Origin: a virus
Length of the DNA: 64,000 nucleotides
IMG/VR virus record: IMGVR_UViG_3300047469_000054
Span: 2,916 to 66,915 of that record
Direction: 5' to 3' (one strand)
Position 1 is the first letter of the stretch. Each line of letters starts with the position of its first letter. The position numbers and the translations under genes were made by a program. The notes under the pieces were generated by a model, which was not told where the DNA came from, did no database searches, and was given only the letters and a program-made list of their open reading frames with translations. Below, one piece after another: positions 19,314-25,450 of the stretch.

Positions 19314-19704
19314 GGAGAATAAAATGCCCAAGGTAAAGATAACGGCAGCTATGGGTTTCTTTGATAAGTACCGCGTGCGCGTTGGCCGAAAGCGCGTTGG
19401 CTGGATTGTTCCGTCACGCGGTTTTCTTCGCGACATGGGCTCTTATCATTTCCATGACGTGAATGGCGAGAAATTTTGCTTTGGATCATTTGCGGATGTT
19501 CGTGATGCTATTATTGCTCACTTTAAGGATGGAGATCATAATGCTAGCAACCTGGACTAAGATCCTGCCGTTTTTCATTGTGGCTTGGCTGGCTAAGCGA
19601 AAATGTGAAGTATTCCATATTACGGAAGAAATAGGAAGTGATTATGTGTATCCGTATAATGGAATTTATATTAGAATGGACAAGACGTGGAGGCGTGGGC
19701 TATA

Positions 19705-20205
19705 ATGGCAACATGGGAAAATTCAGTTGGCGCTACAGACGAATGGTATACACCCAAATATATCTTTGATGCACTTGGGTGTAAATTTGATGTTGACGTG
19801 GCGGCTCCAATTGATAGAGCGTGCACATACGTTCCAGCTGATGAATTCATTTCGTCCGATAGCCTGGAAAATAAATGGGCTGGATTTATTTGGATGAACC
19901 CGCCATTTGGCGGAAGAAATGGATTGGTGCCATGGCTTAATAAGTTCTTTGATCACGGTCATGGCATCGCCCTAACTCCAGATAGAACTAGCGCACCATG
20001 GTTTCGTGATGCATTCAAACGCTGCGATGCTGTAATGTTCATCCCAAAGGTCAGATTTATTAAGCCAGATGGATCATTGGGCAAGTCGCCAAATTGCGGG
20101 ACTGCAATATGGGCGGCTGGCGACCGCGCCGTTGATGCGCTTGTGAGGGCGCGGGGAAATAAACTAGATTGCATTATTGCAACTAAGCATTGGAGCATGG
20201 ATTAA
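19705..20205 (+). CDS. Phage DNA N6-adenine methyltransferase (Dam-like)
   Basis: DEWYTP...FDVD.A...WMNPPF...W..K...RT...WF. Confidence 0.8.
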   Translation: MATWENSVGATDEWYTPKYIFDALGCKFDVDVAAPIDRACTYVPADEFISSDSLENKWAGFIWMNPPFGGRNGLVPWLNKFFDHGHGIALTPDRTSAPWFRDAFKRCDAVMFIPKVRFIKPDGSLGKSPNCGTAIWAAGDRAVDALVRARGNKLDCIIATKHWSMD

Positions 20206-20738
20206 TGGCAAAACGTTCCGACTTCAAGCGCCTGGAAAAGGACGCATATCAAACGATCGACCCACGCGCTATCCCGCCGCTATTGCCGCACATTCTTAGC
20301 GTCAAGCGCTATGCTGAGCCGTGTGCAGGTGAGGGCAAGCTGATTGATATGTTGGCGCAGCAAGCGCCTTGGCTTAAACTTGGGTATTATAATGACATCG
20401 GCTATCTGGATGGCGAAGATGCTATTGATGGCAATATTCTGGAGGCGAGCCGTGGGCAGTATGATGCAATCATCACGAATCCCCCATGGGGCAGAAAGCT
20501 ATTGCATCCAATGATTAGACGGTTCATGTCGATTGCGCCAACTTGGCTCTTATTCGATGCAGATTGGGCACACACAAAGCAAGCGCGTCCTCTACTTCCG
20601 CATTGCGTCAAGATTGTTTCTATCGGTCGGCTAAGGTGGATTCCCGACACCAAAATGAGCGGAAAAGATAACTGCGCATTCTATTATTTCCGCCAAGATC
20701 ACGACGGCGGCCCACGATTCTATAATGAGGATCGATAG
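20205..20738 (+). CDS. DNA amino-methyltransferase
   Basis: D.Y.T, EPCAGEG (SAM motif I), IITNPPW (motif IV), GRLRW. Confidence 0.8.
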   Translation: MAKRSDFKRLEKDAYQTIDPRAIPPLLPHILSVKRYAEPCAGEGKLIDMLAQQAPWLKLGYYNDIGYLDGEDAIDGNILEASRGQYDAIITNPPWGRKLLHPMIRRFMSIAPTWLLFDADWAHTKQARPLLPHCVKIVSIGRLRWIPDTKMSGKDNCAFYYFRQDHDGGPRFYNEDR

Positions 20739-21553: not shown

Positions 21554-22255
21554 ATGGCAACGAAAAAAGAAGAGCGTGCAGCACGTATTCTTGAGGATCG
21601 GAAAGCAGCATACGCTAAGAAGGTTCGCAATCTTGTCGGCTTTATGTTCGGTCGCATTAAAGGCGTATCAGCCGCCTTTGACAAAGGCATTTCAGCCGAT
21701 GAATTCGCGGCTCAGATCGCCTCTAAGTCAATCGTTGGCGCGGTTATCCATCCGCTGAAGATGGATGCTGTTCGCCGCGCGCGTGATCAAGCTGAGGAAG
21801 TCATAGCCAGAGTTAAGGCTGATATTGAAGCCCACGCCATGGACCGCAATGCAGCCGCGCCCTATCCTCCATTCAATATGAACAGCCGTCATCCTGATTA
21901 CGTTAACATGAAGACGAAACACGATCTCTACTATCGCCTGACCGAAAACAAGACGGGCACGTATCGCGAAGGGCAACCAGACATTTGCACAATGAGCAAA
22001 TATGGTTGTGATCGCATGATTGCTGAGGCTGAAGCAATGGCGGCGCAGCAATATGATGCGTTCATCTGCAAGATGGTTTCCAAGGTTGGCGATGTTGTTA
22101 GCGCTGATATCGAAGGCTCTCACATTTGGGGTCATTCGTTCCTGACGGTCGTTACCGCCGATGGCGCTAAGCAGGTTTGGAAGACGCAACAGATCGTCAA
22201 TACGTCTAGTCTCGGTCTCGACTTCAATCAGTGGCCGTCTAGGATCGTAAAATAA
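21554..22255 (+). CDS. Early hypothetical protein
   Basis: AAGGAG RBS; C-terminal QQIVN.S.LG..FNQWP.R motif recalled from phage proteins. Confidence 0.65.
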   Translation: MATKKEERAARILEDRKAAYAKKVRNLVGFMFGRIKGVSAAFDKGISADEFAAQIASKSIVGAVIHPLKMDAVRRARDQAEEVIARVKADIEAHAMDRNAAAPYPPFNMNSRHPDYVNMKTKHDLYYRLTENKTGTYREGQPDICTMSKYGCDRMIAEAEAMAAQQYDAFICKMVSKVGDVVSADIEGSHIWGHSFLTVVTADGAKQVWKTQQIVNTSSLGLDFNQWPSRIVK

Positions 22256-22277
22256 TTAAAGTAGGCCTATTTTTTCT

Positions 22278-22306
22278 TTGACATCAACGAAGAATCGGCC
22301 TATAAC
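22278..22306 (+). promoter_or_regulatory. Near-consensus sigma70 promoter driving the 22.3-kb RNA
   Basis: TTGACA-17 bp-TATAAC with a T-rich upstream tract. Confidence 0.75.
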
Positions 22307-22312
22307 AGACAC

Positions 22313-22790
22313 ATAGCCCAAGGCGCAGGGCTTTAGCAAAGATAGCGACCACTACTAGGATCTTTGCTCAACTTGATTACGCGGGAGGTTGTTATGTAGT
22401 GCGGTCACGCGGAAGCGATAGCATGCCAGTTATTTAGATGTTGTGGATTTGGTATTTGACGAATTCGGCCCAATGTGGCCGCTCCCAAGAGGATAATTGA
22501 TCATGATGGCGAGACGCCTAGCTATAGATAAGTCCGTACCGCAGCGCGGGGCGCGCTGAAAGGAATATCCTGGATCATTAAAGGGCTAAGCCCATTGTCA
22601 TCTCGCCCGTAACGGGTAGACTAGATGAATTTATTATCTGGCTGTATGACTTGCTAAAGCCCATAAGGCGCACGACGCGGGGATAGGCATTTTCACAGCA
22701 AAGCAACCGCTTGATTGCTCACGATCCAGCCCCTAAGCTAGCAGCGCAAGAACCAGAGCTTCGCTATAATGATACGGGCTGCGATCAATG
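22313..22790 (+). ncRNA. Candidate large structured ncRNA (~470 nt)
   Basis: ORF-free; follows a promoter; 12-bp long-range helix 22328-22339/22651-22662; 5'/3' pairing 22314-22319/22776-22781; many nested hairpins. Confidence 0.6.
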
Positions 22791-22821
22791 AACAATCGGT
22801 ATCCATAAAGGAGATAGTAAT

Positions 22822-23891
22822 ATGGAAACAATCGACATTACGCCAACGTGGCGCGACGTAGCAAGAATCATTGCTGCCGTTCTTGAAAATGGCACTGAGG
22901 CTGGTAAGCTGGCAGCTTGGGAGCAGCTAAATTCCATGGCTATGGCTGCCGATGATCGCAATGCTGCCACTCAACAAGCTTGGCGTCTTGCTGTTGTTGG
23001 TGAGAGGCTTGGCGACGCACTGAAGCCATTTGCGGACCTTGGCAACATCTGGCTTCCCGAAAGTGAGGATGATGATAGCGCCTTTGTGCGCGCCGATGAT
23101 ACGGCGGCAACCGGTGTAACCGTTGGCGACCTTCGCAACGCGGCGCGCGTATACAAGGATATCGCCAATGGCAAAGATTGAAAAGACGCGAGCCAACAAG
23201 CCACTGGCACATGGAGGCGCATTCTTCGCCCGCAACGACGATGGCACGCTGTCAATCGGCATGTCGTATATTGCTGTTAATGGGCTGCCGACATCATACA
23301 CGCTTACGCTTGATGCAGACGAGAGCGAACATGCGCGAGATTTCGTCAATCGCCCAAGCTCAAACGATGGGCGGGAGAAGATTCGGTTATGCAAGCATAA
23401 TGATGATGATCATTGGGAAGTCTGCGCCAATAGTCATCAAAATCCTGATGAGTTCATCTACCGGACAATCTGGCTATGAGCACACGCGAAGACTTCTTAC
23501 GGTCGGCAAGTGAAGCTAGCGCCATCGTAGTATGCGATGATGGCGCTCTTATTGACGAACAGAAAATTACCAATTCATGCTATCTTGTTAAAAGTGGCAT
23601 CGCATATATGACGGCTACTCTTGCGGCTGAAGTCCAAACCGGCTTGATGGCGCGCCGTGCGCGGGTATATCAGCCATGATCAAGCTCGAGCATAGCGTAG
23701 GCGAATGGCTTGCCCTGGTGGAGATTATTGGTGATGAAGCAGAGCGTTTCGTCTACGGCAAGAAGCACCTCTTCGGCATGCGACGGCATAGAGGCGTCAT
23801 TCGATTCGTTATCGAGGATCATCGCGTGCAAGGACTAATGGAGTTTGCCGCTAAGCGTGGCGTTGACGTTGTGATTGCTGTAGACATATAG
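22822..23891 (+). CDS. Four coupled small hypothetical proteins (22822-23181, ~23168-23479, 23476-23679, 23676-23891)
   Basis: AAGGAG RBS at the first gene; ATGA overlaps. Confidence 0.55.
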
Positions 23892-24061: not shown

Positions 24062-24104
24062 GACGGCCTTATCAACCGCTTAGCTGCTACTTCAATACCC
24101 AATG

Positions 24105-24143
24105 AAACGCTCGTAAGGCTGATGACCTTGCGGGCGTTTTTTC
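24105..24143 (+). terminator. Rho-independent terminator
   Basis: AAACGCTCGTAAGG-ctgatga-CCTTGCGGGCGTTT followed by TTT. Confidence 0.75.
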
Positions 24144-24145
24144 TG

Positions 24146-24174
24146 TTGACGATCGTTGTTTCATGCGCTACACA
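24146..24174 (+). promoter_or_regulatory. sigma70-type promoter
   Basis: TTGACG-17 bp-TACACA. Confidence 0.6.
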
Positions 24175-24208
24175 TGATGCATAACGCTGTTAGCAAGAGG
24201 ATATAGCG

Positions 24209-25450
24209 ATGACTGCCATTACCGCGCCCGCTGAGAAGAATCTTAGCAAGAAGGATATGCCTATCCATCTGGTGTACGCGCTGGTTGATAGCCGCGAGCC
24301 TGATCATGTGCGGTATGTGGGGAAGACGAACACAGAAAATAGCATGGCTAGACGCCTTAGAGATCATGTTAGAGATGTAAAACAAAATCCTAAATATAAA
24401 AAATCAAGATGGATTTCAGGCGTAATTAACGCAGGATATGCCGTTGAATCTATAATTCTGGTAGAATCTCTTACAGAAAAAGAGGCTATGTCTCTTGAGA
24501 TTGACCTAATAAAGTACTTCGGTGAGGGATTTCACGAATTAACAAATACGACTATTGGCGGAGAAGGGGTTATAAGGATAGAAGGAACTACAGAAAAAGA
24601 TACTATCATTCATGACTTTTATCACATTGAATCTGGAGATATATCTAGATGCACAATAGGCTCAATGATGCTTAAATACGGCAAATCTTCCAATTGGTTT
24701 TCCGTACCGACGGGGAGATGTTTGCAATATAAGGGCTGGACAAACAAAGAAAATTTCATAATTATTTCAGAAAAAAAGAAGATTGAATCTAATATATACA
24801 CATTTGTTAATAACCATGGATATATTTTTGTCGGAAACAGAAAACATATATCTCAAAAAATAAAAAAATCCACAAAATTTGTTGATGGCCTAGTTCGTGG
24901 TGATGTTCATTGCAATACTGCATTCTTCATTGGTGATGGTGATGTTTCATCTTCTGTAGATGTATCTTTATTAAGTTCGTTATCTATAAAAAATGGATTT
25001 TCTGGCGTCAAGAAAAAAAGGAATTCTTATGTATCCGGCGTAACCATTGATGGTTCATATCATTACATCGGCACATATAAGAATGAAGTTTCCGCAGCGG
25101 CGGCTTATGATTTATTTATGATTGATACAGGCCGAATTTTCGTTAGGAATCTTCCGTGTGGTCATCGTGCATACGGCAATATAGATTGTAACATTTTAAA
25201 TATTTCTTCTCCAAAGAATGGCTCAATTTCATCATTATCTAAGTCTGGATATAGAGGAGTAAGAATTCGTTCTGAAAAAAAACCATATGCAAGAATAAAG
25301 ATAGATAAAAATGATATAAACCTAGGCACATTCCCCACGCCAGAACTAGCCGCGCAAGCCTACGACGACGCAGCATTCGCCAAGTGGGGTTTCGACTGCT
25401 ACCTAAACTTCCCCGAACGTTTCGAACATCTCCGCAACCAAGCCGCATAA
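24209..25450 (+). CDS. GIY-YIG homing endonuclease with two AP2 DNA-binding domains
   Basis: VYAL.D.R....RYVGKT...RL..H, E..LI, LTN.T.GGEG; two AP2 repeats (FSGV...Y.G.Y..E..AA.AYD; SGYRGV...LG.F.T.E.AA.AYD..A); AT-rich core. Confidence 0.8.
   Translation: MTAITAPAEKNLSKKDMPIHLVYALVDSREPDHVRYVGKTNTENSMARRLRDHVRDVKQNPKYKKSRWISGVINAGYAVESIILVESLTEKEAMSLEIDLIKYFGEGFHELTNTTIGGEGVIRIEGTTEKDTIIHDFYHIESGDISRCTIGSMMLKYGKSSNWFSVPTGRCLQYKGWTNKENFIIISEKKKIESNIYTFVNNHGYIFVGNRKHISQKIKKSTKFVDGLVRGDVHCNTAFFIGDGDVSSSVDVSLLSSLSIKNGFSGVKKKRNSYVSGVTIDGSYHYIGTYKNEVSAAAAYDLFMIDTGRIFVRNLPCGHRAYGNIDCNILNISSPKNGSISSLSKSGYRGVRIRSEKKPYARIKIDKNDINLGTFPTPELAAQAYDDAAFAKWGFDCYLNFPERFEHLRNQAA

What the first reader, a model, noticed from the sequence alone, without database searches (positions are those of the whole stretch)
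22278..22800. Promoter-driven ~470-nt highly structured RNA with closed ends
Seen in sequence: a 560-bp gap without an ORF in an otherwise gene-dense genome, starting right after one of the closest-to-consensus sigma70 promoters in the window (TTGACA-17-TATAAC). The first transcribed bases TAGCCC (22314) can pair with GGGCTG (22776). A perfect 12-bp helix GGGCTTTAGCAA/TTGCTAAAGCCC (22328/22651) closes a ~310-nt domain containing GCGACC-ACTAC/GTAGT-GGTC-CGC, CGGCC/GGCCG, AGGATA/TATCCT (enclosing GGCG/CGCC and CAGCGCG/CGCGCTG), GGGC/GCCC and TCATCT/AGATGA (enclosing CCCG/CGGG). A 3' domain has AGCAA/TTGCT. Competing pairings exist (AGCAAAGAT/ATCTTTGCT; AGTCCGTA 22531 with TACGGGCT 22773), and AGCCC(AT)AAGGCGCA recurs at both ends of the long helix. 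Inference: a large phage ncRNA in the size class of ROOL/GOLLD/OLE, or a ribozyme or switch. I cannot assign it to a known family.
Basis: partly seen in the sequence, partly recalled or inferred. Interest (0 to 1): 0.85.

Follow-up and report, generated by a model that had tools for sequence, protein, structure and literature searches.

The report
New structured RNA family in rhizobial phages
The last 206 bases of this gene-free gap belong to a conserved, folded RNA, matching no catalogued family, that unrelated phages and phage-plasmids of rhizobia carry just before a gene, while the first 280 bases show no sign of conserved structure.

Summary
The gap (22256-22821) and its promoter (TTGACA 22278-83, 17 nt, TATAAC 22301-06) are real. 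The picture of one closed, highly structured ~470-nt RNA is only partly right. The whole stretch folds no better than shuffles (z -0.77). The 5' ~280 nt has no homologue and z +0.28.

The 3' 206 nt (22593-22798) is one of 24 members of an RNA family. The others come from a related 70-kb phage, Agrobacterium phage JP1 and ~100-122-kb Rhizobium phages or phage-plasmids (RHEph10 group). Four of the five modelled helices have pairs changed on both sides. In all, 91-94% of cells pair against 33-45% in slid controls, and 15-16 pairs changed on both sides.

The core has two hairpin domains and a ~20-bp sequence-invariant rod. The rod's 3' strand ends 9 nt before the Shine-Dalgarno of the next gene. 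Its 12-bp helix clashes with a conserved helix.

Rfam 15 gives no match. It was not found in 300 other sampled host-order and host-family genomes, and no phage protein is shared by all carriers. The function is unknown. My best guess is a self-contained RNA module that docks a conserved host factor. A cis-acting leader is a close rival.

The parts
22278..22306 (+). sigma-70-type promoter: TTGACA (22278-83), 17 nt, TATAAC (22301-06). The start of transcription is inferred at about 22313.
   Evidence: Sequence. It matches 11 of 12 and is one of five such sites in the window. Promoter-like sequence sits at the same place after the homologous gene in Agrobacterium phages OLIVR4, 7-7-1 and Milano (read). 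Not tested by transcript data.
22313..22576 (+). Orphan 5' leader of about 265 nt, with no support for conserved structure. It holds the 5' arm of the 12-nt inverted repeat (22328-22339) and a non-conserved 18-codon ORF (22503-22559) with AAGAGGA 9 nt upstream.
   Evidence: z +0.28. It has no blastn or six-frame similarity to the related phage G300, JP1, RHEph10, 7-7-1 or the rest of the window. Its alignment to L040 is weak.
22577..22593 (+). Small hairpin GGGC-UAA-GCCC (22583-86 / 22590-93) with its A-rich lead-in. It is shared with the related phage only.
   Evidence: Identical apart from one loop base in L040. There is no covariation, so it is conserved but untested as a helix.
22598..22628 (+). 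H1 (UCAUCU 22598-603 / AGAUGA 22623-28) enclosing H2 (CCCG 22606-09 / CGGG 22613-16, loop UAA).
   Evidence: H1: 95% of cells paired, one pair changed on both sides, and a G-U pair kept in 21 of 24. H2: all 4 pairs changed on both sides.
22642..22698 (+). H3: outer CUGU 22642-45 / ACAG 22695-98; inner AUG 22646-48 / CAU 22688-90; a 4-nt bulge (UUUC here, UGUC in most members); and a variable insert 22651-22685 that holds the 3' arm of the 12-nt repeat (22651-62).
   Evidence: All 4 outer pairs changed on both sides (CUGU/ACAG, CCCU/AGGG, CCGU/ACGG, GCGC/GCGC, CCUC/GAGG), with 93-99% of cells paired.
22710..22732 (+). 5' strand of the rod: invariant block A (CUUGAUUGCUCACGAUCC 22710-27), then the variable 5-nt strand AGCCC (22728-32).
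   Evidence: The 18-mer recurs exactly in 12 IMG/VR stretches. There is a single copy per genome in the 3 genomes checked. Pairing is shown.
22733..22775 (+). Variable tip of the rod. It differs between members in cassette-like fashion. Here it contains CCUAAG and a perfect TATAAT (22765-70).
   Evidence: Alignments show at least three unrelated tip types, shuffled relative to the rest of the RNA.
22776..22798 (+). 3' strand of the rod: GGGCU (22776-80), G, bulged C, then invariant block B (GAUCAAUGAACAAUCG 22783-98).
   Evidence: The five variable pairs show 9 different 5' strands, 7 of them (21 of 24 sequences) with the exact matching complement. The pair U-A changes to G-C in 6 of 24 in the otherwise invariant GAUUG/CAAUC helix.
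22808..22824 (+). Shine-Dalgarno AAGGAG (22808-13) and ATG (22822) of the 119-aa ORF 22822-23181. It lies 9 nt after the rod.
   Evidence: Sequence and ORF list. The N-terminal 45 aa are 51% identical to the gene after the RNA in G300.

Best explanation
The gap carries a promoter-driven transcript of two unequal parts. The first ~280 nt are an unconstrained leader. The last 206 nt (22593-22798) are a member of a so far uncatalogued family of structured RNAs. The family is found in unrelated phages and phage-plasmids of Rhizobium/Agrobacterium-type hosts.

The core has two hairpin domains (H1/H2 and H3) and a ~20-bp irregular rod. The rod sequence, including its C-A and C-AA mismatches, is invariant, while its tip and the neighbouring helices change freely.

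My reading is that this is a self-contained RNA module rather than a gene-specific regulator. It is made as the 5' part of the mRNA of the 22822 operon. The invariant rod is the docking surface for a conserved host component, a protein or a machine such as RNase III, the ribosome or RNA polymerase. The RNA acts through that contact, possibly after being cut from the mRNA near the rod.

Shown: the family, its helices, its strand, its single copy, its restriction to phage records, and the lack of a shared phage protein. Inferred: transcription from this promoter, the host partner, any processing and any effect. I put the odds that it is a real structured-RNA family at about 0.95. I put the odds for the 'autonomous host-factor-docking module' mechanism at about 0.45, which is the figure given as confidence.
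For: Family: 24 distinct sequences. The window, 7 GenBank phages and 16 IMG/VR loci all match model R1 at 115-171 bits, and nothing else does in 252 kb searched.

Structure, on the model-fitted alignment: 93.5% of 879 cells pair against 33-43% when partners are slid. 16 pairs changed on both sides against 2-8. The covariation score is 0.272 against 0.054 or less. 0 of 500 shuffles reach any of the five measures.

Structure, on the structure-blind MAFFT alignment: 91.3% against 33-45%, 15 pairs against 3-9, score 0.225 against 0.061 or less.

Strand: 74 G-U cells against 21 A-C cells, and flanking genes are co-oriented in all 7 annotated records.

Not coding: no frame is open across the core in all members, and lengths run from 184 to 229 nt.

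Autonomy. The downstream genes differ between lineages, and no neighbour within 6 kb is shared between the window and the other lineages except L040. Of the window's ORFs, 0 hit JP1 and 2 hit RHEph10 by tblastn at 1e-4. In the X66 group a second copy of the phage's own promoter-like motif follows the RNA. Each genome checked has one copy.

Host factor rather than host homologue: no R1 match in 150 + 150 other genomes of the order and family of the one bacterial assembly that holds it, and no similarity in that assembly outside its 118-kb phage-like contig.
Against: There is no transcript evidence at all: no RNA run holds the sequence. No terminator separates the RNA from the next gene here. 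In 14 of 24 members a start codon follows the rod within 41 nt (11 flagged by the script, 3 more by my reading). That fits a leader at least as well as a free RNA.

The partner is purely inferred. Invariance could instead come from alternative pairings or from recent horizontal spread. The family is small and narrow: effective sequence number 4, in three or four lineages.

The thermodynamic signal of the core is modest (z -1.89). One of the five measures on the MAFFT alignment, further pair types, is reached by 36 of 500 shuffles.
Confidence: 0.45

Rival explanations
1. Cis-acting leader. The core works only on the transcript that carries it. The rod next to the Shine-Dalgarno could be a processing site (as RNase III sites before phage T7 early genes), a stabiliser, a translational operator, or an element that modifies RNA polymerase (as put RNA of phage HK022). 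It would set the expression of the operon that follows.
For: It always lies between a promoter-like sequence and co-oriented genes. The rod ends 9 nt before the Shine-Dalgarno here. A start codon follows within 41 nt in 14 of 24 members. There is no terminator in the gap. The RNA-gene pair is kept between the window and its relative G300 although the upstream gene differs. The rod is about two helical turns with internal loops, the shape of an RNase III substrate (general knowledge, recalled).
Against: The downstream genes are unrelated between lineages. In 10 of 24 members the gene is 66 nt or more away or absent. Of these, 5 share the same 102-nt spacer with a promoter-like motif in it and a sixth (L094) has a variant, and one has a terminator-like hairpin by my reading that the scan did not call. 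The Shine-Dalgarno is not sequestered in any conserved helix. The only strong terminator downstream (24104-24140) ends the operon, so there is nothing obvious to read through. RNase III or stabiliser roles would not demand an invariant sequence plus two extra conserved domains.
Confidence: 0.33
2. One reading: one ornate RNA of about 470 nt with paired ends and a 310-nt domain closed by the 12-bp helix, acting as a ribozyme or switch in the class of ROOL, GOLLD and OLE.
For: The 12-bp perfect repeat exists and has a prior of about 2% in a stretch this size. The unconstrained MFE uses it. It could form a pseudoknot with H3.
Against: z is -0.77 overall and +0.28 for the 5' part. The 5' 280 nt has no homologue even in the related phage, whose leader is about 190 nt of unrelated sequence. 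The proposed end-to-end helix uses a strand that pairs elsewhere with covariation. There are no Rfam matches to ROOL, GOLLD, OLE or any ribozyme or riboswitch model at E up to 10.
Confidence: 0.07
3. A DNA-level element, such as an origin of replication, an array of protein-binding sites or a recombination hot spot. The inverted repeats would then matter in DNA, not RNA.
For: Blocks A and B are invariant and flank cassette-like swaps, as recombination anchors would. The RHEph10 group are plasmid-like prophages that need origins (PMC4447125, passages read). The element is single copy.
Against: The pairs tolerate G-U on the + strand 3.5 times as often as A-C, which duplex or minus-strand function would not favour. 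Compensatory changes preserve pairing rather than sequence in four helices. There are no iterons or AT-rich tract in the core. It occurs in a non-plasmid 67-kb phage. Cumulative GC skew shows no turn here.
Confidence: 0.07
4. Nothing functional: spacer DNA that happens to share short blocks with other phages.
For: The 5' part looks exactly like that.
Against: 24 sequences from lineages with no shared genes keep the same order of blocks and compensate helix changes.
Confidence: 0.03

Closest known systems
GOLLD and ROOL (large ornate RNAs often carried by phages or prophages) and OLE
   Same: A phage-borne, multi-helix RNA of no known function, recognised by covariation. It has variable peripheral parts around conserved ones.
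   Different: There is no Rfam match to any of them at E up to 10. The conserved core is about 200 nt (whole transcripts about 340-490 nt by my reading), against about 600 nt for OLE (abstract of PMC12054373 seen in the listing) and larger sizes that I only recall for GOLLD and ROOL. It sits as the 5' part of an mRNA rather than beside tRNAs (the tRNA association is recalled). It is known only from rhizobial phages. Multimeric cage formation (abstract of 10.1101/2024.12.08.627333) was not tested.
RNase III processing hairpins before phage T7 early genes, and in the lambda N leader
   Same: An irregular rod of about 20 bp with internal loops, lying immediately upstream of a Shine-Dalgarno in a phage early or middle transcript (properties of the T7 and lambda sites are recalled, not checked in a call).
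   Different: One copy per genome instead of several. Both strands have invariant sequence. There are two further conserved domains upstream. Cleavage was not tested.
put RNA of phage HK022 (cis-acting RNA that makes RNA polymerase resist termination)
   Same: A promoter-proximal structured RNA in a phage operon whose conservation would be set by a host machine (recalled).
   Different: put is about 70 nt and occurs twice per genome (recalled). Here no internal terminator needs read-through. There is no sequence or Rfam relation.
Leader-derived immunity RNAs of phage-plasmids (P1 c4, P4 CI)
   Same: RNAs cut from the leader of an operon in phage-plasmids. Most carriers of this family are plasmid-like prophages (PMC4447125 and PMC7969092, passages read).
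   Different: Those are tRNA-like RNAs of about 77-79 nt that pair with repeated target sites (recalled). Here the complementary blocks pair with each other in cis. The candidate third site, the 5' motif, does not covary with block A (my reading). The window's phage and its relative show no plasmid genes in what I examined.

Membership tests
Any Rfam 15 family (4227 models, including GOLLD, ROOL, OLE, group I and II introns, tmRNA, RNase P, 6S, Y RNA, HEARO, riboswitches, ribozymes) | Covariance-model score at or above the family's gathering threshold | tested here: not met
   There were 0 matches in the whole window at gathering score and 0 matches at E up to 10 in 22150-22900. Seven homologous loci gave only 4 sub-threshold chance hits to eukaryotic snoRNA and IRES models.
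tRNA / tmRNA | Cloverleaf or tRNA-like domain found by ARAGORN | tested here: not met
   There were 0 genes in the window.
The family defined here (model R1) | Ordered blocks: H1 GUCRYC...GRUGA, H3 with the UGUC bulge, block A, a covarying 5-bp helix, block B | tested here: met
   Window 22593-22798 matches all 198 model positions at 139.9 bits. But the window was one of the 24 sequences the model was built from, so the match is by construction. Independent support: blastn found block A in 5 phage records before any model existed.
The family defined here (model R1) | Helices supported by compensatory change | tested here: met
   H2, H3 outer and the variable part of the rod have many double changes. 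H1 has one pair changed on both sides. Ten rod pairs never vary and so say nothing either way.
The family defined here (model R1) | The 5' 'b' hairpin (GAGG-GUGGCUA-CCUC, or GCGG...CCGC) seen in the 100-122-kb group and JP1 | tested here: not met
   By reading, it is present in the large phages and JP1. I could not find it in the window or in L040. No model was built for it.
Riboswitch or attenuator | An expression platform: a terminator, or a Shine-Dalgarno-sequestering helix coupled to the conserved fold | tested here: not met
   There is no terminator-like site in the gap. The Shine-Dalgarno lies outside all conserved helices. The downstream genes are unrelated. Ligand binding is not testable here.
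RNase III processing site | Cleavage by RNase III in vivo or in vitro | not testable with these tools
   Only the shape can be read: about 19 pairs plus mismatches.

The most novel reading that the evidence does not exclude
The core is a horizontally traded phage RNA that captures or disarms a host component common to Rhizobiaceae, for example a nuclease, a defence protein or part of the expression machinery. The invariant rod would be the bait. The swappable tips of H3 and of the rod would be specificity or escape cassettes shaped by an arms race. That would make it an RNA-only host-takeover or counter-defence device, shared by virulent phages and phage-plasmids that have no genes in common.
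Probability: 0.2. Interest if true: 0.85.

Novelty: new variant of a known kind. Interest (0 to 1): 0.62.

Why it matters
Large structured RNAs of phages are few, and most still lack a function. This family has features that make it experimentally tractable. It has a clear architecture and strong covariation. Its carriers are cultured, with benign laboratory hosts (Rhizobium etli, R. leguminosarum). No linked phage protein is shared by all carriers, and the invariant rod points to a conserved host partner.

Lineages with no shared genes carry the same RNA, and its tips are exchanged like cassettes. That suggests selection on an interaction with the host. Finding the partner could reveal a new route of host takeover, of control of phage gene expression, or of counter-defence in alphaproteobacteria.

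For annotation, it explains 400-670-nt 'empty' gaps in at least ten deposited phage genomes. It also argues that the 56-aa ORF RHEph10_gp130, annotated over the element, is not a gene.

Tried and rejected
Known family: Rfam at the gathering threshold and at E up to 10 gave nothing. ARAGORN gave nothing.

Protein coding or decayed gene: no conserved frame. Six-frame fragments of the 5' part have no tblastn hit below E 0.04 in four phage genomes. The flanking proteins have no Pfam family and only PHROGs of unknown function.

MITE-like insertion bounded by the 12-nt repeat: no second copy in the window, none in plasmids, and the element is not repeated. Dropped.

Host-derived sequence, attachment site or mimic of a host RNA: a 22-mer of block A matched 0 stretches in genome contigs, one genome for each of 185,579 species by the tool's description. 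The looser A...B pattern matched only one contig, a 118,187-bp phage-like contig in a Phyllobacterium assembly, the same length as IMG/VR locus L041's contig. There were no other blastn matches of note in that genome.

Plasmids: no match for the window's gap or for the RHEph10 element among 72,556 records.

Relatives through flanking proteins: 14 IMG/VR loci for the downstream protein and 4 metagenome loci for the upstream one. None has DNA similarity to the gap.

I first took the phage for a Schmittlotzvirus. Whole-genome tblastn showed only 3 of its ORFs hit 7-7-1, while most hit the IMG/VR phage G300. 7-7-1 has no R1 match.

A partner protein shared by all carriers: none found. This covers only the window's + strand ORFs of 45 aa or more, at E 1e-4.

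Pairing of block A with the 5' promoter-proximal motif, and a local hairpin upstream of block A: neither is conserved nor covaries, by my reading.

A second weak R1 match in JP1 (17.9 bits) covers only an H1-like piece. Not pursued.

Expression: no RNA holder listed. One DNA run, coded X1 and labelled rhizosphere metagenome, holds the stretch and may be its source.

Literature: searches for 'Rhizobium phage' / 'noncoding RNA' / 'intergenic', RHEph10, ROOL / GOLLD / phage, Alphaproteobacteria / phage / 'structured noncoding RNA' / covariation and Schmittlotzvirus turned up nothing on this RNA. Passages of PMC10132094 were read and are irrelevant. Supplements were not opened.
Full report
WHAT IS THERE. 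The window is 64,000 bases of a 66,915-bp virus record with direct terminal repeats. Nearly all long ORFs are on the + strand. Between the stop of ORF 21554-22255 and ATG 22822 lies a 566-bp stretch with no ORF of note. It opens with TTGACA (22278-83), 17 nt, TATAAC (22301-06). This matches 11 of 12 and is one of five such sites in the window. The gap, the promoter and the listed repeats are real.

IS IT 'HIGHLY STRUCTURED'? Not by energy. The 491-nt stretch has z -0.77 on the + strand and -0.94 on the - strand. Split in two, the 5' 281 nt give z +0.28 and the 3' 206 nt give z -1.89. The perfect 12-nt inverted repeat (22328/22651) is about a 2% event for a stretch this size, but the window holds 13 such 12-mer pairs against 2.35 expected. 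Rfam 15 finds nothing in the window at gathering score, and nothing in 22150-22900 at E up to 10. ARAGORN finds no tRNA or tmRNA.

HOMOLOGUES.
- blastn against 50,697 phage records matched only 42 nt of the gap (22687-22728, 93% identity), in RHEph10-like Rhizobium phages of about 115 kb. There the match also lies in a gap free of convincing ORFs.
- Reading those gaps showed a second shared block next to the ribosome-binding site of the following gene.
- Searching with the RHEph10 gap added Y2_11, X66, V1VFA-S, B1VFA and Agrobacterium phage JP1. Each has an annotated gap of 413-667 nt.
- Exact-pattern scans of IMG/VR added 16 more loci. Among them is L040, from a complete 70,357-bp phage (G300).
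- By tblastn, G300 is the true relative of the window's phage: most ORFs hit it, at 30-88% identity. Only 3 ORFs hit 7-7-1, 2 hit RHEph10 and none hits JP1.
- The element is therefore shared by lineages that share almost no genes.

THE CONSERVED CORE. In all 24 sequences the same order holds:
- H1 (GUCRYC ... GRUGA) enclosing a small hairpin H2.
- A linker.
- H3 (for example CUGU-AUG ... CAU-UGUC-ACAG) with a variable insert.
- Block A (CUUGAUUGCUCACGAUCC).
- A 5-bp helix of free sequence and a variable tip.
- Block B (GAUCAAUGAACAAUCG).
Blocks A and B pair with each other: GAUUG/CAAUC, UCA/UGA and GAUC/GAUC, separated by C-A and C-AA mismatches and one bulge. Together with the 5-bp helix they form a rod of about 20 bp. 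In the window the core is 22593-22798. Exact coordinates are in the parts list.

COVARIATION.
- RNAalifold on a plain MAFFT alignment already predicted the rod and H1, with 10 pairs changed on both sides.
- I wrote a five-helix structure, built model R1 and realigned the sequences.
- On the model-fitted alignment, 93.5% of cells pair against 33-43% with slid partners. 16 pairs changed on both sides against 2-8. 76 such cells against 6-20. 0 of 500 shuffles reach any measure.
- Because that alignment leans to the model, I repeated the count on the MAFFT alignment. There 91.3% pair against 33-45%, 15 pairs against 3-9, and the score is 0.225 against 0.061 or less. One measure, further pair types, is reached by 36 of 500 shuffles.
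- The 5-bp helix occurs in 9 versions, 7 of which (21 of 24 sequences) show the exact matching complement; the other three sequences are offset in the alignment.
- In the otherwise invariant GAUUG/CAAUC helix, six sequences carry G-C where the rest have U-A.
- G-U cells outnumber A-C cells 74 to 21, as expected for an RNA read from the + strand.
- No reading frame is kept open.
- Ten rod pairs never vary, so they carry no evidence for or against pairing.

- TCATCT/AGATGA with CCCG/CGGG inside is right.
- GGGCTG at 22776 pairs with AGCCC at 22728, not with the 5' end.
- TTGCT belongs to the A-B helix.
- The 3' arm of the 12-bp helix lies in the variable insert of H3, so the two cannot both form without a pseudoknot. 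Enforcing the conserved helices gives -141.7 kcal/mol against -156.3 for the free fold.
- The 5' ~280 nt have no detectable relative anywhere. That includes G300, where about 190 nt of unrelated sequence stand in its place.
- The conserved object is therefore a core of about 206 nt at the 3' end of the gap, preceded by an unconstrained leader.
- In the large phages and JP1 the 5' part is longer-conserved. It holds a further covarying hairpin (GAGG-GUGGCUA-CCUC or GCGG...CCGC), by my reading. I did not find this in the window.

DISTRIBUTION.
- One copy per genome where checked.
- Absent from the whole 7-7-1 genome and from the 6-kb loci of OLIVR4 and Milano.
- No match among 72,556 plasmids.
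- In genome contigs, which by the tool's description holds one genome for each of 185,579 species, the pattern occurs once, on a 118,187-bp contig of a Phyllobacterium assembly. That contig has the same length as the IMG/VR contig of locus L041.
- R1 found nothing in 150 other genomes of that bacterium's order or in 150 of its family. These are samples, searched with strict filters.
- RHEph10 is reported as a relative of the plasmid-like prophage pLM21S1, which has a RepC-type replicon (PMC4447125 and PMC7969092, passages read).

CONTEXT AND MECHANISM.
- The element always lies downstream of a -10-like or promoter-like sequence and upstream of co-oriented genes.
- In X66 and V1VFA-S the motif TAAAAC-N-TCATC occurs 4 times on the forward strand per genome and 0 times in the reversed control. 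One copy precedes the RNA and one follows it.
- A start codon follows the rod within 41 nt in 14 of 24 members. In the other 10 there is a hairpin, a promoter-like motif or a long spacer. A terminator-like hairpin that I read in L041 was not called by the scan.
- The downstream genes are unrelated between lineages, and no phage protein is common to the carriers.
- In the window the operon runs from the RNA through four or five small ORFs of no known family to a strong terminator at 24104-24140.
- From this I infer a self-contained RNA module whose invariant rod contacts something conserved in the host. I cannot tell whether it acts in trans after release (0.45) or only on its own transcript (0.33). 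A DNA-level role (0.07), the original 470-nt ornate model (0.07) and no function (0.03) are less likely.
- No expression data exist for it.

NOVELTY. There is no Rfam family for it, and five literature searches found nothing. It is a new family of a known kind of thing, a structured RNA carried by phages. It is well supported by covariation, narrow in range and open as to function.

Noticed in passing
window 24104-25450: A strong intrinsic terminator (15-pair stem, 24104-24140) is followed by a 413-aa HNH endonuclease gene (24209-25450) in the lowest-GC kilobase of the window (0.386). This looks like an inserted homing endonuclease.
   Followed up: no
window 19687-20738: Two overlapping ORFs (19687-20205 and 20190-20738) match different parts of DNA methyltransferase PHROGs (phrog_111 and phrog_799). 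This may be a split or frameshifted methyltransferase.
   Followed up: no
window 22765-22770: A perfect TATAAT sits in the variable tip of the rod, 52 nt before the ATG. It is absent from the relative L040. It could be a second, internal promoter for the next gene.
   Followed up: no
window 22503-22559: An 18-codon ORF (ATG ATG ...) with AAGAGGA 9 nt upstream lies in the orphan leader. It is not present in L040.
   Followed up: partly
window 22258-22275: The palindrome AAAGTAGGCCTATTTTTT lies right after the stop of ORF 21554-22255 and abuts the -35 box. It is a weak terminator-like hairpin. A similar T-run-then-TTGAC arrangement follows the terminator at 24104-24140.
   Followed up: no
L027 (X66), L028 (V1VFA-S) and their whole records: The promoter-like motif TAAAAC-N(3-9)-TCATC occurs 4 times on the forward strand in each genome and never in the reversed control. 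It is probably a phage-specific promoter or start site.
   Followed up: partly
L002, L003, L026-L029, L031-L041, L073-L075, L094 (tip of the rod): The tip between blocks A and B comes in at least three unrelated sequence types. These are distributed independently of the rest of the RNA and of the downstream gene: N1_10 shares its tip with V1VFA-S but its downstream gene with L039. That suggests recombination within the invariant blocks.
   Followed up: partly
L003 1473-1643 (RHEph10_gp130): The annotated 56-aa ORF covers the conserved RNA core. The same frame is closed in N1_10 and in the window, so it is probably not a gene.
   Followed up: partly
L102 17745-17872 (JP1): A second, weak match to R1 (17.9 bits) reproduces only the H1-like GUCGCC...GGUGA piece.
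   Followed up: partly
L058 / L099 (G001 contig 16): A 118,187-bp contig in a Phyllobacterium myrsinacearum assembly carries the RNA and has the same length as the IMG/VR contig of locus L041. It is probably a plasmid-like prophage of the RHEph10 kind.
   Followed up: no
L101 1-402 (RHEph10_gp099): RHEph10 encodes a UPF0027 protein about 11 kb upstream of the RNA. I recall UPF0027 as the RtcB RNA ligase family, but this name is from memory.
   Followed up: no
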